A stretch of 64,000 bases of DNA, taken from the sequence record NC_055721.1; one strand, given 5' to 3'. This DNA comes from Escherichia phage EcS1. This document shows, piece by piece, positions 45,096 through 53,927 of this stretch (position 1 is its first letter; each line of letters starts with the position of its first letter). Below the pieces are notes generated by a model. The model worked only from the letters and a program-made list of their open reading frames with translations. It was not told the DNA's origin and ran no database searches. Both the position numbers and the translations under genes were made by a program.

Positions 45096-46655
45096 ATGAA
45101 AAAGAACGCTCTCTTAGAAAAATGGCAGCCACTGCTGGAAAATGAAGAACTGCCAGAAATTGTTGGTGCTTCAAAACAAGCCATTATCGCTAAAATCCTG
45201 GAAAACCAGGAAAAAGACTTTACTACTTCCCCTGAATACAAAGATGAAAAAATCGCAGAAGCTTTTGGTTCGTTCCTGAGTGAAGCAGAAATTGGTGGTG
45301 ACCATGGTTATGATGCAACCAATATCGCTGCTGGTCAAACCTCTGGTGCTGTAACTCATATCGGTCCTGCTGTAATGGGTATGGTTCGTCGTTCAATCCC
45401 TAATCTGATTGCTTTCGATATCTGTGGTGTTCAGCCGATGAATAACCCTACTGGCCAGGTGTTCGCACTGCGTGCTGTGTATGGCAAAGATCCAATCGCA
45501 GCTGGCGCTAAAGAAGCATTCCACCCAATGTTCGCTCCAGATGCAATGTTCTCTGGTCAAGGTGCTGCTGAAGTATTCCCTAAAGCAACCGCTGGTAAAG
45601 TGTTAGCTGTTGGTGATATTGTAGTTCATGATTTCGAACAAACTGGTCGTGCTCATCTTCAAACTGTAGTTGCTTTCACTATTGATGCTGCTGCTACTGA
45701 TGCTGGTAAACTGGACGTAGAAATCACTAAGCAATTAGAAGCTGGTAAACTGGCTGAAATCGCTGAAGGTATGGCTACCTCTATCGCCGAATTGCAAGAA
45801 GGCTTTAACGGTTCTACTGATAATGCTTGGAACGAAATGGGCTTCCGTATCGATAAACAAGTTATCGAAGCTAAATCTCGTCAGCTTAAAGCTGCTTACT
45901 CTATCGAACTGGCTCAAGACTTACGTGCTGTTCACGGTATGGACGCTGATGCCGAACTGAGTGGTATTCTGGCTACAGAAATTATGCTGGAAATTAACCG
46001 TGAAGTAATCGACTGGATTAACTATTCAGCACAGGTTGGTAAAACCGGTATGACTCAAACTGTTGGTTCTAAAGCCGGTGTGTTTGACTTCCAAGACCCA
46101 ATCGATACGCGTGGTGCTCGTTGGGCTGGTGAAAGCTTTAAAGCTCTTCTGTTCCAAATCGATAAAGAATCAGCTGAAATCGCACGTCAAACCGGTCGTG
46201 GTGCAGGTAACTTCCTGATTGCTTCACGTAACGTTGTTAACGTACTGGCTGCTGTTGATACCAACGTATCTGTAGCTGCTCAAGGTCTGGGTCGTGGTTT
46301 CGAAACTGATACCACTAAAGCCGTATTTGCTGGTGTATTGGGTGGACGCTACCGTGTCTATATCGACCAGTATGCACGTCAAGACTACTTCACCATGGGT
46401 TATAAAGGTTCTAACGAAATGGATGCTGGTATCTACTACGCGCCATACGTTGCACTGACTCCGCTGCGTGGTTCCGATCCTAAGAACTTCCAACCAGTAA
46501 TGGGCTTCAAAACTCGTTATGGTATCGGTATTAACCCATTCGCTGACCCAGAAGCTCAGGCTCCTAAAGGTCGTGTCGTGTCTGGTATGCCTTCATTGGC
46601 TAACAGCATCGGTAAAAACGGTTACTTCCGTCGTGTGTTCGTTAAAGGTATCTAA
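45096..46655 (+). CDS. 23: major capsid protein gp23
   Basis: 519 aa (T4 gp23 521); N-terminal propeptide followed by a conserved capsid fold region. Confidence 0.95.
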   Translation: MKKNALLEKWQPLLENEELPEIVGASKQAIIAKILENQEKDFTTSPEYKDEKIAEAFGSFLSEAEIGGDHGYDATNIAAGQTSGAVTHIGPAVMGMVRRSIPNLIAFDICGVQPMNNPTGQVFALRAVYGKDPIAAGAKEAFHPMFAPDAMFSGQGAAEVFPKATAGKVLAVGDIVVHDFEQTGRAHLQTVVAFTIDAAATDAGKLDVEITKQLEAGKLAEIAEGMATSIAELQEGFNGSTDNAWNEMGFRIDKQVIEAKSRQLKAAYSIELAQDLRAVHGMDADAELSGILATEIMLEINREVIDWINYSAQVGKTGMTQTVGSKAGVFDFQDPIDTRGARWAGESFKALLFQIDKESAEIARQTGRGAGNFLIASRNVVNVLAAVDTNVSVAAQGLGRGFETDTTKAVFAGVLGGRYRVYIDQYARQDYFTMGYKGSNEMDAGIYYAPYVALTPLRGSDPKNFQPVMGFKTRYGIGINPFADPEAQAPKGRVVSGMPSLANSIGKNGYFRRVFVKGI

Positions 46656-46755: not shown

Positions 46756-48036
46756 ATGAGCAAAATTCATACCCTGTTGCGCGAATCTACAACTACGAGC
46801 AGTTCGTCTCTTGGGCGTCCCGACCTCGTTGCATTGACTCGCGCCACGACTAAATTAATCTATAGCGATATTGTGGCAGAACAACGTACATCTCAACCAG
46901 TTGCGGCATTATATGGTATCAAATATTTGAACCCTAATGATGATATGACCTTTACTTCTGGTGCTACTTATGCTGGCCCATTCGGTACTAAAGAACGCAA
47001 AACGGTAGTTGAAATTACTGATGCAAATAAAGCAACATTTACAACAGGCAAATACTTCAAATATAAAGATATCGTTTATAAAGTATTAGGTGTTTCTGTT
47101 ACCGATGGGACTACTGAAACCGATCTTGATTTTATGATTCAAGAATCAATGGTTCTTTTGAATATTCGAAGTGTGCACGAAGCAGCTGAAACGGCTAAAT
47201 TTGAAGCCTCTGATGTAGAAGTATCTGAAGCATCATTTGAAGTGTCTAAATGGAATGCTCCAGTTAAATCACGTAAATTAAAAACAGCTTTGACTGTTGA
47301 ATTGATGCAAGACCTTGAAGCTAATGGATTCAATTCGCCTAATTTCGTAGAAGATCTTTTGGCTACCGAAATGGCTGATGAAATTAATAAAGACATTATC
47401 CAGTCATTGATTACAGTTTCTAGTCGTTATAAAGTTACTGGTGAAACAGATAAAGGCATTCTTGATTTAACTACTGTTGAAGACCCGTTAGCTGGACGTA
47501 AATTGTATCGTATGGTATGTGAAATCAATTCGCATATTCAAAGAACAACTTCTTATTCAGGAACTTATGTCGTTGCATCAACTCGTGTCGCTGCTGTATT
47601 AGCTTCTTCAGGTTGGTTAAAACATAAGCCAGAAGATGACCAATATCTGTCACCGGCTGCATATGGATTCTTGGCTAATGGTCTGCCACTTTATTGTGAT
47701 GCAAGTTCACCATTAGATTATGTTATTGTTGGTGTTAAAGAGGACTTTGGTGAACTAGAAATGGTTGGCTCATTGTTCTATGCGCCGTATACTGAAGGAT
47801 TGGATTTAGAAGACCCTGAACACGTAGGTGCGTTTAAGGTAATTGTTGACCCGGAATCTTTGCAACCATCTGTTGCATTACTGGTTAGATATGCTCTGTC
47901 AGCGAACCCTTATACAGTAGCTAAAAACGAGGCTGATGCTCGTATTATTGATGCTACTGATATGGATAAAATGGCAGGTCAAAGTGATATGTCTGTATTG
48001 CTTGGTGTTAAGTTACCGAAGTTAATTGCAGGCTAA
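46756..48036 (+). CDS. 24: capsid vertex protein gp24
   Basis: 426 aa (T4 gp24 427), paralogous to gp23. Confidence 0.9.
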   Translation: MSKIHTLLRESTTTSSSSLGRPDLVALTRATTKLIYSDIVAEQRTSQPVAALYGIKYLNPNDDMTFTSGATYAGPFGTKERKTVVEITDANKATFTTGKYFKYKDIVYKVLGVSVTDGTTETDLDFMIQESMVLLNIRSVHEAAETAKFEASDVEVSEASFEVSKWNAPVKSRKLKTALTVELMQDLEANGFNSPNFVEDLLATEMADEINKDIIQSLITVSSRYKVTGETDKGILDLTTVEDPLAGRKLYRMVCEINSHIQRTTSYSGTYVVASTRVAAVLASSGWLKHKPEDDQYLSPAAYGFLANGLPLYCDASSPLDYVIVGVKEDFGELEMVGSLFYAPYTEGLDLEDPEHVGAFKVIVDPESLQPSVALLVRYALSANPYTVAKNEADARIIDATDMDKMAGQSDMSVLLGVKLPKLIAG

Positions 48037-48075
48037 AAAAAAAAGGGAACCATATGGTTCCCTTTTTTTGTTTTT
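48035..48075. terminator. bidirectional intrinsic terminator between gene 24 and rnlB
   Basis: A10 - GGGAACCATATGGTTCCC palindrome - T7GT5; serves both convergent genes. Confidence 0.65.
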
Positions 48076-49078
48076 ATACTACTTCATGCCATTTTTCACG
48101 AATGGTAGCCATTACTATTTGCTGAAGTTCTTTCTTAACTAAGTTCGGTTGGTCAGCATCGATAAGTACGATACCTTCACGTTCTGCTTCGACAAAAATA
48201 TCTTGCATAGTAAGACCCATTACCTTACCGAAGTCTTTAGCTGTCACTTCACCAATATGACTCAAAACGTTGGACACACGGTTCCAGGTACTATATTCAG
48301 CTAATGTAGACAGTGCAACCTTATCTTGGTCGCTTAATACCGCAGCCGGCTTAATAGGCTTATCAGATTTAGCCTTTTCACTGAACTTAGAGTTCTTACA
48401 TTTAATAGCAACACGATTACCGTTAGCTAAAATCACTGGATAACAAGGCTTCAGAACATAGCCTTCTGCGATATTCTTTTCACCATGAGGCAAGAAACCA
48501 AAGTGAGCTATGTTAGCATATTCAATACCGTTGGCCACAGCAAGTTCATTATAATGATTAACTACAGAATCAAAGTCATTAACTAACTGAGATAATTCTT
48601 CGAAAGAGCCACGAGCTATTAGTGGTGCTACTTTAAAACCAAAGGTACAGCACATACGTTCAACCATGAAATCATCAGCATAAGTGCCTTCTTGGTCGTG
48701 TTCTGACTTAATTAAGATATCGAATACGTAGAAGTCTTTCTCACCGTAATCCATACCTTTTTGAATTCCACCACCTGCGAACTCGCCGAAAATTTGATAC
48801 GAAGATGCTGTACCACAGATAGAGTCTTGAAGAAACTTAATAGACTTATCATATTTCTTCATAATAATTTCATGAGCAAAGAAACTTTCACCGGGCAGAA
48901 TAGGTCCTGTCCGCTTACACGGAGTGACTGCGTCACGACTAATAATTAGAGAGAAGTTTGTACCATGAATCTTTTCACGTGCTACCCATACGCCAGTGTC
49001 ATTACCAGAGAAACGAATCTTCTCGATGAACTTACCGTTGTAATGATTCTCTAAAGAGGAGTACTTTTCAAATGTCAT
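48074..49078 (-). CDS. rnlB: RNA ligase 2
   Basis: 334 aa (T4 Rnl2 334); nucleotidyltransferase lysine motif KIHGTNFS. Confidence 0.85.
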
Positions 49079-49176
49079 AAATCACCATATTAAAATAATT
49101 AATCTTCTAGCCCCAGGCTTATAAATAGGCCTCTGAACCATTATATCGAATATATCACATATATTCTTAAAGCATA

Positions 49177-49450: not shown

Positions 49451-49726
49451 TTAGGCCTCGGTTTTGGATAAGGTAGCGTGTGCATTGATATTTTTAACCA
49501 ATTTTTTGTGATGCAAAGTTGATGTAGTCATTCGCTTGCGATAAACAACTTTCTCGCGTGATTTGAATTTGATTTTAAGCTTTTCACCTTCAGCCCAATG
49601 TTTAGCAGCTTCTCGAGCTGAAATACCTAATTTTTCAGCTACATCACCAAATGTCATTTTTAAATCTTCAATCATTGTATAAATTTGAACAGCAATATTC
49701 ATAGTCACCTCATGTTTGTAGGTCAA
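49451..49726 (-). CDS. hypothetical HTH DNA-binding protein (24.3-like position)
   Basis: 91 aa with a helix-turn-helix-like segment FGDVAEKLGISAREAAKHW. Confidence 0.45.
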   Translation of the reverse strand: MTYKHEVTMNIAVQIYTMIEDLKMTFGDVAEKLGISAREAAKHWAEGEKLKIKFKSREKVVYRKRMTTSTLHHKKLVKNINAHATLSKTEA

Positions 49727-49786
49727 TTATACTCAATATTCTTATAGCATAAATACACTATATTTCATAATAAGAGGACACATCTT

Positions 49787-51124
49787 ATGGCTATTCCTTC
49801 AGTAACGATTACCCCAGTTAATGCCTCACCACAACTTGGTCAGACATTAACTATCAATTCAGTAGTTGAATTCGACCCAACAGATGTTTATACATCGTAT
49901 AAATGGGAACTTTCTGGCGCAGATACAGGCGTTACTACTGCAACATACACTAAAGCCAATATCACAAGTGCTGATGCTGGTTCTTACGTATTAAAAGTTA
50001 TGCATGGTGTTGATGCAGGTTCTGCAACTGAAACCGCTTCAAGTCCTGCCGTTATTACTACTTTACCGGCAACAACTGTTTCTATTGTTTCAACCACTAC
50101 TGACATTTATGTCGGTGATACATTAACTATTACTGCTACCCCAACTGGTGTTCCTTCTGGCGCAACAGTAGGCGCATATGAATGGTCTAAAGGTGGTACT
50201 GTAGTTTCGGGCCAAACTACTTCTACATTGACTAAAACAGTTGCGGCTGGCGATGCCGGTTCTTATACTGCTAAAGTATCTTATACTGTAACAGGCCAAG
50301 CACCAATTAAAACTGCTGCATCTAATGCTATCTCTGTTACTGTTGGACCTGCATTAGCATTTGCTACTAACCTTAATGCAACAGCTTCTGTATCAACAGG
50401 CCAAGCTCTTACCCTAACTGTAGCAGCATCCGGTGGTAAATCTCCATATACATATCAATGGAAGAAAGGAAGTGCTAACATAGGAACTAATTTAAATACA
50501 TTTATAGTTCCTTCTGCGGATTCAACAACTGCAGGAACTTATACTGTTGAAGTGACAGATGCTGCAAGTCATAAAATCACATCAGCTTCTTGTGTTGTTA
50601 CAGTGGTGCCTGCTTTATCTTTGAGCACCGATTTGTCTGCGACTAAATCAGTTGTTTCAGGTAAAACTCTTACTCTAACTATTGTTGCAGCTAATGGCAA
50701 AACGCCTTATACATATCAATGGAAAAGAGCTGGCGTTGAAATCCCAAGTGAAACAGCTGCTACATTTACTAAATCTGCGTCACCAGCGGACGCAGGTACG
50801 TATACATGTGAAGTGACAGATGATAATAACGATAAAATCACATCTAATACATGTGTTGTAACTGTTAGTTTATTGCCTGATTTAGAAGTTCTTTGGACTG
50901 TACATCCTATCCCATGGCGAGATACAAGTTTCACTCCGTTAGGTTATTGGGTATTAGATGAAATCTTACTTCAAAAAGCTGATGGCAAAGACTGGAAAAC
51001 TGATTACGCTACTTATCATTACACAGAAGAAGTTCAAACTATTTTAGAAGCATTTAATGCTATGGGTGAAGTTGAAATTCAAGACTCGCGTAATGGGTAT
51101 ATCCACAAAATGAGTTTAATTTAA
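49787..51124 (+). CDS. hoc: highly immunogenic outer capsid protein Hoc
   Basis: 445 aa; repeated Ig-like modules (internal repeats TPYTYQWK...AGTYT...EVTD) followed by a C-terminal capsid-binding-like segment PIPWRDTSF...SRNGYIH. Confidence 0.8.
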   Translation: MAIPSVTITPVNASPQLGQTLTINSVVEFDPTDVYTSYKWELSGADTGVTTATYTKANITSADAGSYVLKVMHGVDAGSATETASSPAVITTLPATTVSIVSTTTDIYVGDTLTITATPTGVPSGATVGAYEWSKGGTVVSGQTTSTLTKTVAAGDAGSYTAKVSYTVTGQAPIKTAASNAISVTVGPALAFATNLNATASVSTGQALTLTVAASGGKSPYTYQWKKGSANIGTNLNTFIVPSADSTTAGTYTVEVTDAASHKITSASCVVTVVPALSLSTDLSATKSVVSGKTLTLTIVAANGKTPYTYQWKRAGVEIPSETAATFTKSASPADAGTYTCEVTDDNNDKITSNTCVVTVSLLPDLEVLWTVHPIPWRDTSFTPLGYWVLDEILLQKADGKDWKTDYATYHYTEEVQTILEAFNAMGEVEIQDSRNGYIHKMSLI

Positions 51125-51133
51125 GAAGGTTTT

Positions 51134-51631
51134 ATGGCTGATAAATGGACAACAGTTAACCCAATCCCGTGGCGAGATACAAGTTTTACGTATCTCCCTT
51201 ACTGGCTTTACGATATTATAGTTAAAGCCTTTAAAGACGGTAATGATTGGCGTGATTATTCTGAAACGAAATACAAATTAGAATTTGATACCTTGATTCA
51301 AGCATTCGAAGACTACGATGACATTTCAGTTATTGAATCACGTAATGGTAATCTACATGATTTATCTAATTTTACACCAGTAACAATCACAGCTAAATCA
51401 CCTGTGCCAGCTTTTAAAGTTGGTGACCCAGATTTAGTTATCAGCGCATTGTTCACAATTGATCCAGTTAAATTAGGGCAGCATGCAGTGTTATCTGTTG
51501 ATGCTTCTGGACATGCTGTATTAAGCAGCAGTGCTGTACCATCCGTTAAGGCTGTTTCGGCTGGGACAACTGTGGTGACATGTACTATTGGTGATGTATC
51601 AGAAACAATTAGTTTAGTTGTAACTGTATAG
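51134..51631 (+). CDS. Hoc-like protein: capsid-binding-like module plus Big_2-type Ig domain
   Basis: N-terminus VNPIPWRDTSFTYLPYW...ESRNGNLH repeats the Hoc C-terminal module; C-terminus resembles a bacterial Ig-like domain (SAGTTVVTCTIGDVSETISLVVTV). Confidence 0.6.
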   Translation: MADKWTTVNPIPWRDTSFTYLPYWLYDIIVKAFKDGNDWRDYSETKYKLEFDTLIQAFEDYDDISVIESRNGNLHDLSNFTPVTITAKSPVPAFKVGDPDLVISALFTIDPVKLGQHAVLSVDASGHAVLSSSAVPSVKAVSAGTTVVTCTIGDVSETISLVVTV

Positions 51632-51632
51632 C

Positions 51633-51668
51633 AAAAAGGGAGAGCTTACGCTCTCCCTTTTTTATTTT
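51633..51668. terminator. bidirectional terminator between the Hoc-like gene and inh
   Basis: A5 - GGGAGAGC-TTAC-GCTCTCCC - T6ATTTT. Confidence 0.6.
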
Positions 51669-52375
51669 ATAACTTGGAAACTTGAATTACGCGTTTCACG
51701 AACGCGAACTAACCCATCACGCTTAATGTAATATAAAAGACTTAATATCGTATCAATACCGTAGTGGTGTGGGAACGAATGCGGATTCACTTTCCATTCT
51801 GGGTTCTTTGTAATCCATTCATAAATCCACCAAGGTAGAGTTACATAAGTTAATCCACGTCCAATTTGAGCTAATGTAGGACTGAAATCTTTTGGAAGCT
51901 CAAATACCTTTTCAGATTCAATAATCTGTTCAATAGCTTTTTCAAGAGCAGGGAGATCTTCTTCAGTCATAGGCTTGGTTGGGATAGTTTCAATGCCTTC
52001 GCTATGAATAACTGTAACAACTTCACCAATTGGAGCTTGAATAGAGTTAATGATTTTAGCTTCAACGGAAGGAGCTCCGATAGAATCGATCAAAAGTGTC
52101 TTGGCTTCATCTTTAGCTTCATCTTTAAAAACAGAAGTGCCAGTGAGTTCATCATCAGCTTGAATCAAATCAGAGATACTCATTCCGCCAATATCTTCAG
52201 GCATTGGTTCAGAAGCAAGTTTTTTCATTTCTTCTGACAAGTCAGCAACCATGTTATCAAATGACTTAGTTTTCTTTAAAGTTATGTTGAAAGTAAGAGC
52301 GTAGTCGGCCAGTTTTTCTTTGGCTTCTTTTTTGTCTAGCTCACGAAGTTCGTCAATATAAATTTTATCAATCAT
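51662..52375 (-). CDS. inh: inhibitor of prohead protease (Inh)-like protein
   Basis: 237 aa (T4 Inh 226) in the conserved position between hoc and uvsW. Confidence 0.5.
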   Translation of the reverse strand: MIDKIYIDELRELDKKEAKEKLADYALTFNITLKKTKSFDNMVADLSEEMKKLASEPMPEDIGGMSISDLIQADDELTGTSVFKDEAKDEAKTLLIDSIGAPSVEAKIINSIQAPIGEVVTVIHSEGIETIPTKPMTEEDLPALEKAIEQIIESEKVFELPKDFSPTLAQIGRGLTYVTLPWWIYEWITKNPEWKVNPHSFPHHYGIDTILSLLYYIKRDGLVRVRETRNSSFQVIK

Positions 52376-52427: not shown

Positions 52428-53927
52428 GTGGATATCAATGTACATTTTGAAGATTATAGTCATGTTCTGATTGAATGCTCAGAGAGCATCTTCTTTGAAC
52501 TAAGAGACTACTTTTCATTTGAAGCTGATGGCTTCAAATTTAACCCACAATACAAATATGGTCATTGGGATGGACGAATTCGCCTTTTAGGTTATGACCG
52601 TCGTTTGCCATTTGGACTAGTTGGATTCATCGATAAATTTGCTTCCAATATGGATTACAAAGTAGCAATTGACCCTAAAATCAATGAGAAAGAAGATATC
52701 GCTCGTGTTGATTTTGATAATTGGTTGAATGCTCTTGAAATTTATTCTGGGTCTACCAAGATTGAGCCACATTGGTACCAGAAGGACGCCGTGTACACTG
52801 GCCTGATGAATCGTAGAAACATTCTTAATTTACCTACTTCCGCAGGTAAGTCATTGATTCAGGCGCTCCTGGCACGTTATTATGTTGAGAACTATGTTGG
52901 TAAGATTTTAATCATTGTTCCAACAACAGCTTTAGTTGATCAAATGATTGACGATTTTGTTGATTATCGTTTGTTCAATCGTAAGAATATGCTAGGCATT
53001 CGTGGTGGTACAGCTCGTGATTCTGACGCAGAGATTTATGTTGCTACTTGGCAAACTGCTGTTAAACAACCTAAAGAATGGTTCAGTCAGTTTGGTATGA
53101 TGATGAACGACGAATGTCATCTTGCTACAGGCAAAAGTATTTCATCTATTATTGCAGGCTTAAATAATTGTGCTTTCAAATATGGTCTTTCTGGTTCTTT
53201 AAAAGATGGTAAAGCCAATTTGATGCAATATGTAGGTATGTTTGGTAATGTTTTTAAGCCTGTGTCAACATCACAGCTTATGGAAGATGGTCAAGTAACT
53301 GATTTGAAAATCAACTCTATTTTCTTACGTTACCCTGATGAATTCTGTGCTCAAATGAAAGGCAAAGATTATCAGACAGAAATTAAGGTTATCCAAAAAG
53401 CTAAGAAACGAAATCTTTGGGTCTCTAAGCTTGCTGTTAAATTAGCTAAAAAAGAAGAGAACGTTTTCTTGATGTTCAAGAATGCCGAACATGGTAAAGA
53501 ACTTTTCCAAATGGTTAAAGACCTTGAGCATAAAGAAGTATTCTTCGTAAATGGTGAAGTTGATACTGATACTCGTAATGCATTGAAAGTAATGGCTGAA
53601 AATGGCAAGGGTATTATTGTTGTCGCTTCATACGGCGTATTCTCTACCGGCATCAGTGTTAAAAACTTACATCATATTATTTTTGCACACCCGGTAAAAT
53701 CAAAGATCATTGTGCTTCAGACTATTGGTCGTGTACTTCGTAAACACGTAAGTAAAACAACGGCTCAAGTCTGGGACATTATAGATGATATGGGTGTTAA
53801 ACCTAAGTCTGCTAATGCTAAAAAGAAATATGTTCATTTGAATTATGCATTAAAACATGCTCTTGAACGTATTCAACGTTATGCAGAAGAAAAATTCAAT
53901 TATGTAATGAAACAGGTAGACTTATGA
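52428..53927 (+). CDS. uvsW: DNA/RNA helicase UvsW
   Basis: 499 aa; Walker A LNLPTSAGKS and DECH box; size matches T4 UvsW. Confidence 0.9.
   Translation: MDINVHFEDYSHVLIECSESIFFELRDYFSFEADGFKFNPQYKYGHWDGRIRLLGYDRRLPFGLVGFIDKFASNMDYKVAIDPKINEKEDIARVDFDNWLNALEIYSGSTKIEPHWYQKDAVYTGLMNRRNILNLPTSAGKSLIQALLARYYVENYVGKILIIVPTTALVDQMIDDFVDYRLFNRKNMLGIRGGTARDSDAEIYVATWQTAVKQPKEWFSQFGMMMNDECHLATGKSISSIIAGLNNCAFKYGLSGSLKDGKANLMQYVGMFGNVFKPVSTSQLMEDGQVTDLKINSIFLRYPDEFCAQMKGKDYQTEIKVIQKAKKRNLWVSKLAVKLAKKEENVFLMFKNAEHGKELFQMVKDLEHKEVFFVNGEVDTDTRNALKVMAENGKGIIVVASYGVFSTGISVKNLHHIIFAHPVKSKIIVLQTIGRVLRKHVSKTTAQVWDIIDDMGVKPKSANAKKKYVHLNYALKHALERIQRYAEEKFNYVMKQVDL

What the first reader, a model, noticed from the sequence alone, without database searches (positions are those of the whole stretch)
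50881..51631. Duplicated and domain-shuffled Hoc capsid-binding module: a second decoration protein
The C-terminal segment of Hoc (VHPIPWRDTSFTPLGYW...DSRNGYIHKM) is repeated, with about 26 nt of near-identical DNA, at the N-terminus of the next ORF (VNPIPWRDTSFTYLPYW...ESRNGNLHDL), which then ends in a Big_2-type Ig-like domain. The capsid-anchoring module appears to have been duplicated and fused in inverted order to a different Ig domain, giving a second capsid-displayed protein that could bind a different surface (mucin, glycan or host envelope). A weaker echo of the motif (LPWW...RETRNSSF) is present at the C-terminus of the inh product.
Basis: seen in the sequence. Interest (0 to 1): 0.6.

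Follow-up and report, generated by a model that had tools for sequence, protein, structure and literature searches.

The report
Second, short Hoc capsid decoration protein
The gene after hoc in this T4-like phage (Escherichia phage EcS1) encodes a small second decoration protein with the Hoc capsid anchor at its front end and one Ig-like domain behind it; this protein family is real but already annotated and widespread, and the one less expected result is that the neighbouring protease-inhibitor protein Inh carries a distant copy of the same anchor.

Summary
Hoc residues 371-443 and ORF165 residues 7-78 are 47% identical (BLASTP E 5e-22). ORF165 folds into a Hoc-type capsid-binding domain (CBD) followed by a Big_2-like Ig domain.

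It is not new and not a local event:
- The window is Escherichia phage EcS1, and ORF165 is 100% identical to its NCBI protein "Hoc-like head decoration".
- It belongs to PHROG families 14282 and 11091. In RB16 and RB43 this short form carries the hoc name.
- The tandem of a long Hoc and a short Hoc recurs in Klebsiella phages Metamorpho and Lemur_ER36, and in KP15 and many similar Klebsiella and Enterobacter phage records, some annotated hoc_1/hoc_2.
- A CBD tree shows one old duplication.
- DNA identity (119 of 216 nt) equals what codon usage predicts, so the near-identical 26-nt stretch reflects a conserved motif.
- Fokine et al. 2023 already describe phages with two Hocs and a Hoc-like protein with an N-terminal CBD.

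Most likely mechanism (inferred, not shown): ORF165 is co-transcribed with hoc and competes with it for the single site at each gp23 hexamer centre, giving a mixed capsid surface.

The "weak echo" in Inh is true remote homology: hhalign E 7e-8, and the only credible PDB fold match is the T4 Hoc CBD. I found no paper describing it.

Interest is low for the main finding and moderate for the Inh link.

The parts
49787..51124 (+). [quoted passage not shown]
   Evidence: ORF; Pfam Ig_3 E 3e-23, Ig_2, PKD; phrog_1149 Hoc-like, E 2e-64
50885..51121 (+). Capsid-binding domain (CBD) of long Hoc, aa 367-445 (TVHPIPWRDTSF ... QDSRNGY)
   Evidence: CBD HMM E 1.5e-36; about 80% identical to the long-Hoc CBDs of Metamorpho, Lemur and L008
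51125..51129 (+). Shine-Dalgarno-like GAAGG, 4 nt before the ORF165 ATG. Only 9 nt separate the hoc stop from the ORF165 start.
   Evidence: Read from the sequence
51134..51631 (+). ORF165 = short Hoc paralog (HocS, hoc_2 type), 165 aa, 18.1 kDa, pI 4.55
   Evidence: 100% identical to NCBI 'Hoc-like head decoration [Escherichia phage EcS1]'; phrog_14282 E 1.6e-62, phrog_11091 E 1.1e-53; mass and pI
51146..51373 (+). N-terminal capsid-binding domain of ORF165 (aa 5-80), topology beta-alpha-alpha-beta-beta
   Evidence: aligns to T4 Hoc 293-363, E 2.6e-16; Foldseek 8t1x_X, probability 1.0, 35% identity; model
51383..51628 (+). C-terminal Big_2-like Ig domain of ORF165 (aa 84-165)
   Evidence: all-beta, pLDDT about 90; 7quz Big_2-CBM56, lambda gpV C-domain, LigB; Big_2 in 5 of 12 aligned sequences
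51633..51662 (.). Bidirectional intrinsic terminator shared by hoc-ORF165 (+) and inh (-)
   Evidence: 13-bp stem, T tracts on both strands
51662..52375 (-). inh (minor head protein, inhibitor of the prohead protease), 237 aa
   Evidence: phrog_1051 E 5e-80
51665..51859 (-). C-terminal domain of Inh (aa 173-237), a remote homolog of the Hoc capsid-binding domain (PWWIY...ETRNSSF)
   Evidence: hhalign; pLDDT above 90; top PDB hit 8t1x_X, probability 0.99; Hoc proteins at BFVD ranks 8-28
49748..49755 (+). CATAAATA, a 7-of-8 match to the T4 late promoter consensus, 32 nt upstream of the hoc ATG. An exact TATAAATA lies at 49120-49127 (+).
   Evidence: Pattern match only; promoter function is inferred.
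49721..51683 (.). Replaced hoc cassette: the stretch with no nucleotide similarity to the closest relative, Winklervirus Virsaitis27, which carries a T4-type 179-aa hoc on the opposite strand
   Evidence: about 80% identity up to 49720 and again from 51684
46065..46121 (+). gp23 residues 324-342, the counterpart of the T4 gp23 Gly326-Arg344 Hoc-docking loop
   Evidence: 18 of 19 identical to T4; D336 and R344 equivalents conserved; the loop's role in T4

Best explanation
ORF165 is the short member of a pair of paralogous Hoc decoration proteins. It has an N-terminal Hoc capsid-binding domain (CBD), a short linker, and one C-terminal Big_2-like Ig domain.

Proposed mechanism, all of it inferred:
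- ORF165 is transcribed late on the same mRNA as the long hoc, has its own ribosome-binding site, and ends at a shared bidirectional terminator.
- After capsid expansion its CBD docks at the centre of gp23* hexamers through the residues T4 Hoc uses (Arg300, Trp310, Asp313 and the Glu-Ser-Arg-Asn-Gly loop).
- Each hexamer has one such site, so long Hoc and short Hoc exclude each other capsomer by capsomer. The head should carry a mosaic of long four-Ig fibres and short one-Ig stubs, both acidic.

Origin, as the comparisons show:
- The pair arose from one old duplication and travels as a cassette among T4-like phages.
- In EcS1 the cassette replaced the T4-type hoc that its closest relatives carry.
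For: Shown here.
- Homology to T4 Hoc residues 293-363: E 2.6e-16.
- Contact residues kept: R14, W24, D27 and E68-S-R-N-G72 (read).
- The model's N-domain matches 8t1x_X, the capsid-bound T4 Hoc CBD, with probability 1.0.
- Its C-domain matches Big_2-type Ig folds.
- Full-length membership of the PHROG 'Hoc-like head decoration' families.
- 100% identity to the EcS1 protein annotated as Hoc-like.
- 66 phage records hold full-length homologs, including those carrying the hoc name in RB16 and RB43.
- The same tandem occurs in Metamorpho, Lemur_ER36, an ENA contig, and KP15 and many similar Klebsiella and Enterobacter phage records.
- The gp23 docking loop is 18 of 19 identical to T4.
- 9-nt gap to hoc, GAAGG before the ATG, shared terminator.
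- The tree gives one clade of short-form CBDs and one of long-form CBDs.
- Cassette boundaries at 49720 and 51684.
- All Hoc forms compared are acidic, pI 4.5-4.9, as Fokine et al. 2023 stress for Hoc (PMC10385173).

From the literature: two Hoc-like proteins per phage and an N-terminal CBD are described for phages Muldoon and PG7.
Against: - I found no virion proteomics, cryo-EM or binding data for this protein or any short Hoc. Capsid attachment is inferred from homology.
- EcS1 ORF165 has Asn at the position of T4 His295, a gp23 contact. All 11 other sequences in alignment A1 have His there, and Tyr360 is also replaced by Asn. Affinity may therefore differ.
- The first 17 residues of the model, which include the first conserved strand, have low confidence.
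- How an Ig domain leaving the C-terminal end of the CBD would project from the capsid is unknown.
Confidence: 0.8

Rival explanations
1. The short paralog is mainly an occupancy regulator. It caps hexamer centres to thin out the long Hoc fibres, tuning fibre density, aggregation or charge. It would not be a second adhesin with its own ligand.
For: - In KP15 the gene in the same position encodes a bare 91-aa CBD with only a Pro/Asp-rich tail. Other bare-CBD or CBD-plus-tail proteins exist (P0140, P0153, P0217).
- Both paralogs target the same single site per hexamer.
- The contact-residue changes H9N and Y-to-N73 in EcS1 could set relative affinity.
Against: - The Ig domain is kept intact across the family at 45-61% identity.
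- Some members have it doubled (P0006, P0007).
- In RB16-type phages I saw no long Hoc in the 6.5 kb inspected around the short gene, so there may be nothing to dilute there.
- This rival is compatible with the best explanation rather than exclusive of it.
Confidence: 0.25
2. A recent in-situ duplication of the Hoc anchor within this phage, followed by fusion to a foreign Ig domain.
For: A 17-nt exact run and 24 of 26 nt identical between the two copies. The two genes are adjacent.
Against: - The ORF165 CBD is 69-76% identical to short Hocs of other genera but only 48% identical to its neighbour's CBD.
- The tree separates paralogs before phages.
- Overall nucleotide identity equals the codon-usage expectation, and the exact run has P = 0.10.
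- The PWRDTSF motif is conserved, with a single substitution at most, in all long and short copies compared.
- The block spanning the long-Hoc CBD, the spacer and the short-Hoc CBD is conserved as DNA in other phages.
Confidence: 0.03
3. ORF165 is a decaying or unexpressed remnant with no role in the virion.
For: It is small. In RB43 the homolog is split into two ORFs. No expression data are available.
Against: - The frame is intact, with a ribosome-binding site and a terminator.
- 27 columns are invariant across all 12 aligned sequences.
- The predicted fold is confident.
- The gene is kept in several phage genera.
Confidence: 0.04

Closest known systems
T4 Hoc (highly immunogenic outer capsid protein; PDB 8T1X, 5VF3)
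   Same: - Homologous capsid-binding domain: E 2.6e-16, with the same fold.
- Conserved Arg300, Trp310, Asp313 and ESRNG loop.
- Acidic.
- Carries an Ig-like domain.
- Encoded beside inh.
   Different: - Domain order is inverted: the CBD is first and the Ig last.
- One Big_2-like Ig domain instead of three Ig domains of the Ig_3/I-set type.
- 165 aa against 376 aa.
- His295 and Tyr360 equivalents are Asn.
- Encoded on the strand opposite to inh.
Short Hoc of Pseudotevenvirus (RB16 hoc, 167 aa; RB43 hoc) and PHROG families 14282 and 11091
   Same: Same architecture over the full length, 55-57% identity. Same conserved motifs. ORF165 belongs to this family.
   Different: In the 6.5 kb inspected around the RB16 gene no long Hoc is annotated. 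In EcS1 the short form follows a long Hoc.
Tandem hoc_1/hoc_2 cassettes of Klebsiella phages Metamorpho (Jiaodavirus), Lemur_ER36 and KP15 (Slopekvirus)
   Same: - Same gene order: a long Hoc with a C-terminal CBD, a spacer of about 10 nt, then a short protein with an N-terminal CBD.
- The junction block is 70-74% identical at DNA level.
- Metamorpho also shares the flanks (24.3-like gene and inh).
   Different: - The N-terminal Ig strings of the long Hoc are unrelated at DNA level.
- The KP15 second gene lacks the Ig domain (91 aa).
- In Lemur and KP15 the pair lies on the same strand as inh, downstream of it and followed by nucleotidase genes. In EcS1 and Metamorpho it lies between the 24.3-like gene and inh and converges on inh.
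Enterobacter phage PG7 511-aa Hoc-like protein, and the second Hoc of Serratia phage Muldoon (Fokine et al. 2023, PMC10385173 section 3.6)
   Same: Published precedent for two Hoc-like proteins in one phage and for a CBD placed at the N-terminus to display another module.
   Different: The PG7 cargo is a GDSL-like lipase, not an Ig domain. Muldoon's second Hoc keeps the CBD at the C-terminus.
Inh C-terminal domain (Pfam PF26098, Phage_Inh_C)
   Same: - Same beta-alpha-alpha-beta-beta fold.
- Shared motifs: WW at the start of helix 1, DWK, and an E-S/T-R-N loop.
- hhalign E 7e-8.
- PF26098 gives a weak hit on a short Hoc.
   Different: - About 20% identity.
- The first Hoc strand (VHPxPxR) has no clear counterpart.
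- The loop reads ETRNSSF rather than ESRNGY.
- It is attached to a helical Inh N-domain, not to Ig domains.
- Its binding partner is unknown.

Membership tests
Hoc family (T4-type capsid decoration protein) | Sequence homology to the Hoc capsid-binding domain | tested here: met
   Profile against PDB sequences: T4 Hoc 293-363, E 2.6e-16. BLASTP against the neighbouring Hoc: E 5e-22. phrog_1149 E 1.3e-22.
Hoc family (T4-type capsid decoration protein) | Conserved capsid-contact residues: Arg300, Trp309/310, Asp313 and the Glu355-Gly359 loop (Fokine 2023) | tested here: met
   R14, Y23/W24, D27 and E68-S-R-N-G72 are present. Exceptions: His295 is Asn9 and Tyr360 is Asn73.
Hoc family (T4-type capsid decoration protein) | Fold of the capsid-binding domain | tested here: met
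   AF2 model pLDDT 85.8. Foldseek hit 8t1x_X: probability 1.0, TM-score normalised to target 0.53, 35% identity.
Hoc family (T4-type capsid decoration protein) | Canonical order: a string of Ig-like domains followed by a C-terminal capsid-binding domain | tested here: not met
   The CBD occupies residues 5-80 and the Ig domain residues 84-165. In the survey, about 7 of 142 representative clusters have a CBD within the first 15 residues plus a longer C-terminal extension (my count).
Hoc family (T4-type capsid decoration protein) | Binds the centre of expanded gp23* hexamers, one copy per capsomer | not testable with these tools
   Indirect only: the gp23 docking loop is 18 of 19 identical to T4.
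Short Hoc family (phrog_14282 and phrog_11091; RB16 and RB43 hoc) | Full-length match: N-terminal CBD plus C-terminal Ig-like domain, about 160-250 aa | tested here: met
   phrog_14282 E 1.6e-62 (residues 3-163) and phrog_11091 E 1.1e-53. 55-67% identity over 97-99% of the length to RB16, Metamorpho and metagenomic members.
Big_2 (PF02368) bacterial Ig-like domain | Pfam match above the gathering threshold | tested here: inconclusive
   ORF165 itself gets only Big-like PF22359, E 0.012 and 16.3 bits against a cut-off of 27. 5 of 12 sequences in alignment A1 hit Big_2, best E 2e-4.
Big_2 (PF02368) bacterial Ig-like domain | Big_2-type Ig fold | tested here: met
   Foldseek hits 7quz (Big_2-CBM56, probability 1.0, 27% identity), 2l04 (lambda gpV C-terminal Ig-like domain) and LigB 2mog.
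Relation of Inh C-domain (PF26098, Phage_Inh_C) to the Hoc CBD | Significant profile-profile similarity, checked against shuffled controls | tested here: met
   hhalign probability 94.6%, E 7e-8. Shuffled score 11.4 +/- 2.6, maximum 18.5, against 42.2 for the real alignment. Tool hhalign E 3.5e-6. The Inh homolog P0271 was recovered by the CBD profile at E 3e-4 among 1.84 billion proteins.
Relation of Inh C-domain (PF26098, Phage_Inh_C) to the Hoc CBD | Shared fold | tested here: met
   Inh model C-domain pLDDT above 90. The top and only credible PDB hit is 8t1x_X: probability 0.99, TM-score normalised to target 0.58. BFVD ranks 8-28 are almost all Hoc, outer-capsid or unnamed proteins, and probability then drops below 0.2 for nearly every later hit.
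Relation of Inh C-domain (PF26098, Phage_Inh_C) to the Hoc CBD | Inh binds gp23 capsomers through this domain | not testable with these tools
   No data. No paper found.

The most novel reading that the evidence does not exclude
The hoc-inh locus holds three copies of one capsid-anchor fold: long Hoc, short Hoc and the C-terminal domain of Inh. Inh, the poorly understood minor head protein that inhibits the prohead protease, would then be targeted to gp23 capsomers by a Hoc-type anchor, possibly at the same hexamer-centre site or at its prohead-state counterpart. hoc and inh would be ancient tandem paralogs. The homology itself is well supported here (about 0.9). The probability given below refers to the functional reading (Inh docks on gp23 through this domain) together with its being unreported.
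Probability: 0.3. Interest if true: 0.55.

Novelty: already known. Interest (0 to 1): 0.25.

Why it matters
- **For the main finding, little changes.** The protein is already annotated as Hoc-like, its family is in PHROGs, and the principle of an N-terminal anchor and of two Hocs per phage is published. The useful additions are that the pair is an old, mobile cassette, that the two products must share one site per capsomer, and that the cassette replaced a T4-type hoc in EcS1.
- **For phage display and vaccine work.** Cargo sits naturally at the C-terminal side of the anchor in short Hocs, so fusions in that orientation are probably tolerated.
- **The Inh link.** It could give a first structural handle on how Inh reaches the capsid.

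Tried and rejected
- **Recent duplication or gene conversion as the source of the 26-nt patch: rejected.** A codon-usage simulation puts the observed identity at expectation. Motif codons compared across four phages showed within-phage sharing of synonymous codons in Metamorpho and Lemur, but no consistent excess over orthologous pairs.
- **Megablast of the locus against the phage collection** found only inh fragments. The EcS1 record itself does not appear among the hits. Identity came from the protein search.
- **The look-up of encoding contigs for ORF165** returned nothing.
- **Pfam on Inh** gave no hit, because the local copy lacks PF26097 and PF26098. Those names came from precomputed annotations.
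- **Literature searches** for an Inh-Hoc relation, for EcS1 Hoc and for virion proteomics of short Hocs found nothing usable. Sathaliyawala 2010 and Fokine 2011 are not held.
- **Five proteins with 6-7 partial matches to the CBD profile.** The one I read, P0166, looks like a metalloprotease with Gly/Asp-rich repeats. I judged these matches spurious.
- **Co-variation between gp23 and CBD type: none.** The gp23 docking loop is nearly invariant whichever CBD type the phage carries.
Full report
**What is there**

The window is a T4-like phage. Around the finding the genes run as follows:

| Gene | Coordinates | Strand |
|---|---|---|
| gp23 | 45096-46655 | + |
| gp24 | 46756-48036 | + |
| rnlB | 48074-49078 | - |
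| two small 24.2/24.3-like genes | between rnlB and hoc | - |
| hoc | 49787-51124 (445 aa) | + |
| ORF165 | 51134-51631 (165 aa) | + |
| hairpin terminator | 51633-51662 | both |
| inh | 51662-52375 | - |
| uvsW | 52428-53927 | + |

ORF165 is 100% identical to the NCBI protein "Hoc-like head decoration [Escherichia phage EcS1]". EcS1 belongs to the genus Kagamiyamavirus, subfamily Tevenvirinae. The closest genomes in the phage collection are Winklervirus phages at about 82% nucleotide identity.

**Check of the observation**

- BLASTP aligns Hoc 371-443 with ORF165 7-78 at 47% identity, E 5e-22. The repeat is real.
- The DNA patch exists: a 17-nt exact run and 24 of 26-27 nt identical. It carries no extra information. 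I re-drew codons for the two peptide sequences from the window's own codon usage.
  - Expected identity was 118.8 +/- 4.2 of 216 nt. Observed identity is 119.
  - A run of 17 or more occurs in 10% of simulations.
  - The patch encodes PWRDTSF. That motif is conserved, with a single substitution at most, in every long and short copy I compared.

**Structure and family**

- An AlphaFold model built on 12 sequences has pLDDT 85.8. It shows a beta-alpha-alpha-beta-beta N-domain (to about residue 80) and an all-beta C-domain (84-164).
- It matches the C-domain to Big_2-type Ig domains: 7quz, the lambda gpV C-domain and LigB.
- A sequence profile hits T4 Hoc residues 293-363 at E 2.6e-16.
- Read against the contact map of Fokine et al. 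2023, ORF165 keeps Arg300 (R14), Trp310 (W24), Asp313 (D27) and the Glu-Ser-Arg-Asn-Gly loop (68-72). It has Asn where T4 has His295 and Tyr360. The His is present in all 11 other sequences of the alignment.
- PHROGs places ORF165 full-length in phrog_14282 and phrog_11091, both "Hoc-like head decoration" (E 1.6e-62 and 1.1e-53).
- The Big_2 assignment is good at fold level but sub-threshold by Pfam for ORF165 itself.

**How common it is**

- tblastn finds full-length homologs in 66 phage records. In RB16 and RB43 this short form carries the hoc name.
- The tandem of a long Hoc followed after about 10 nt by the short form also occurs in:
  - Klebsiella phage Metamorpho, with the same flanks and both genes annotated Hoc-like;
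  - Lemur_ER36;
  - an ENA metagenome contig.
- A DNA query spanning the junction finds 164 records. Most listed hits are Klebsiella and Enterobacter phages such as KP15, Matisse and phiEap-3. They cover the long-form CBD, the spacer and the short-form CBD, and several are annotated hoc_1/hoc_2.
- In KP15 the second gene is a bare 91-aa CBD.
- A profile search of 1.84 billion representative proteins finds 142 clusters with this CBD. By my count about 7 have it at the N-terminus with a longer extension, a few are bare, and the rest have it at the C-terminus.
- Fokine et al. 2023 (PMC10385173, section 3.6) already describe phages with two Hoc-like proteins (Muldoon, PG7). They also describe a PG7 protein whose CBD is N-terminal.

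**Evolution**

- In a neighbour-joining tree of CBDs, all short-form CBDs form one clade and the long-form CBDs of EcS1, Metamorpho, Lemur and L008 form its sister. T4 and Virsaitis27 Hoc lie outside.
- Pairwise identity is about 80% among long forms, 64-76% among short forms, and 44-51% between paralogs.
- One old duplication is therefore inherited or transferred as a pair.
- EcS1 and its closest relative Virsaitis27 are about 80% identical up to 49720 and again from 51684, with nothing between.
- Virsaitis27 instead has an unannotated 179-aa T4-type Hoc on the other strand.
- Window 50894-51516 is 69-73% identical to Metamorpho, Lemur and L008. EcS1 thus acquired the cassette by replacement.

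**Likely mechanism (inferred)**

- A 7-of-8 late-promoter match lies 32 nt before hoc. There is no room for a promoter in the 9-nt gap between the genes. GAAGG precedes the ORF165 ATG, and one bidirectional terminator follows. This suggests late co-transcription with hoc.
- The gp23 loop that forms the Hoc site in T4 is 18 of 19 identical in EcS1. It does not vary with CBD type.
- With one site per hexamer, the two paralogs should compete and give a mosaic surface.
- Both proteins are acidic.
- Whether the short form acts as a second adhesin or mainly thins out the long fibres cannot be decided here. The bare-CBD variants favour the second role. The conserved and sometimes doubled Ig domain favours the first.

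**The Inh echo**

- Pairwise BLASTP is marginal.
- A profile of 20 CBDs against a profile of 124 Inh C-termini gives hhalign probability 94.6%, E 7e-8, over 61 columns.
- One hundred column shuffles scored 11.4 +/- 2.6 (maximum 18.5) against 42.2 for the real alignment. The tool's own hhalign gave E 3.5e-6.
- Among 530 six-frame ORFs of the window, the CBD HMM hits only Hoc, ORF165 and Inh.
- The Inh AlphaFold model has a confident C-domain (pLDDT above 90) with the same beta-alpha-alpha-beta-beta order.
- Its only credible PDB match is the T4 Hoc CBD: probability 0.99, with every other hit below 0.2.
- In BFVD the hits after the Inh homologs are almost all Hoc, outer-capsid or unnamed proteins, including EcS1's own Hoc.
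- Pfam's Phage_Inh_C gives a weak hit on a short Hoc.
- Inh keeps the WW at the start of helix 1, a DWK-like motif and an invariant E-T-R-N loop.
- In T4, inh and hoc are adjacent on the same strand with a 9-nt gap, which fits an ancient tandem origin.
- I found no paper on this relation. The library lacks most of the older T4 literature, so I cannot claim it is unreported.

**Verdict**

The object is already annotated and belongs to a widespread family. The Inh relation is the only part that might be new.

Noticed in passing
window 51665-51859 (-), Inh aa 173-237: The C-terminal domain of Inh is a remote homolog of the Hoc capsid-binding domain by sequence profile and by predicted fold. In T4, inh and hoc are adjacent and co-oriented, which suggests an ancient tandem duplication. 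I found no publication on this.
   Followed up: yes
window 49787-51124: In UniProt/BFVD the long Hoc of EcS1 (A0A2Z5ZCP2, 445 aa) is named 'Phage tail fibers', while the 165-aa protein carries the Hoc name. Several other phage records label the long partner 'tail fibers' or 'whisker protein'.
   Followed up: partly
L001 3981-4520 (-), Erwinia phage Virsaitis27 ORF193: This 179-aa protein is annotated 'hypothetical' but is a T4-type Hoc: one Ig-like domain plus a C-terminal CBD (IHPLDHR...VQESRHGY).
   Followed up: partly
window 49721-51683: Nucleotide similarity to the closest relatives breaks exactly at the borders of the hoc module. The module is inverted relative to T4 and Winklervirus, so this is a cassette replacement.
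   Followed up: yes
L013 3742-4017, Klebsiella phage KP15 KP15_196: The second Hoc gene of KP15 is a 91-aa bare capsid-binding domain with a Pro/Asp-rich tail and no Ig domain. Metagenomic relatives P0010 and P0011 are similar. It may act as a cap for hexamer centres.
   Followed up: partly
window 51158-51160 (ORF165 Asn9): EcS1 short Hoc has Asn where all 11 other aligned sequences have His. In T4 this is His295, a conserved gp23 contact. It might lower affinity.
   Followed up: no
L003 2016-2936 (RB43 inh) and L003 3992-4495 (RB43 hoc): RB43 Inh (306 aa) carries four tandem copies of a repeat of about 29 aa in its middle region. RB43 hoc is split into two ORFs in this record, whereas other RB43 records show one continuous match.
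   Followed up: no
protein P0133 (184 aa, metagenomic): An N-terminal CBD fused to an Ig_3/I-set-like domain with the SPYTYVW motif, the kind found in long Hocs. This shows further shuffling of cargo on the same anchor.
   Followed up: no
proteins P0166, P0221, P0223, P0248, P0251: Large proteins with 6-7 partial matches to positions 8-47 of the CBD profile. The one I read, P0166, looks like a metalloprotease with Gly/Asp-rich repeats. Probably low-complexity artefacts.
   Followed up: partly
whole window: The T4 late promoter core TATAAATA occurs 16 times against 6.3 expected (0 of 100 shuffles reach 16), mostly on the + strand upstream of structural genes. An exact copy at 49120 (+) points through the minus-strand 24.2/24.3-like genes towards hoc.
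   Followed up: no
L002 5371-7792, Klebsiella phage Metamorpho uvsW: uvsW is annotated as a two-piece joined CDS, interrupted by a GIY-YIG homing endonuclease gene.
   Followed up: no
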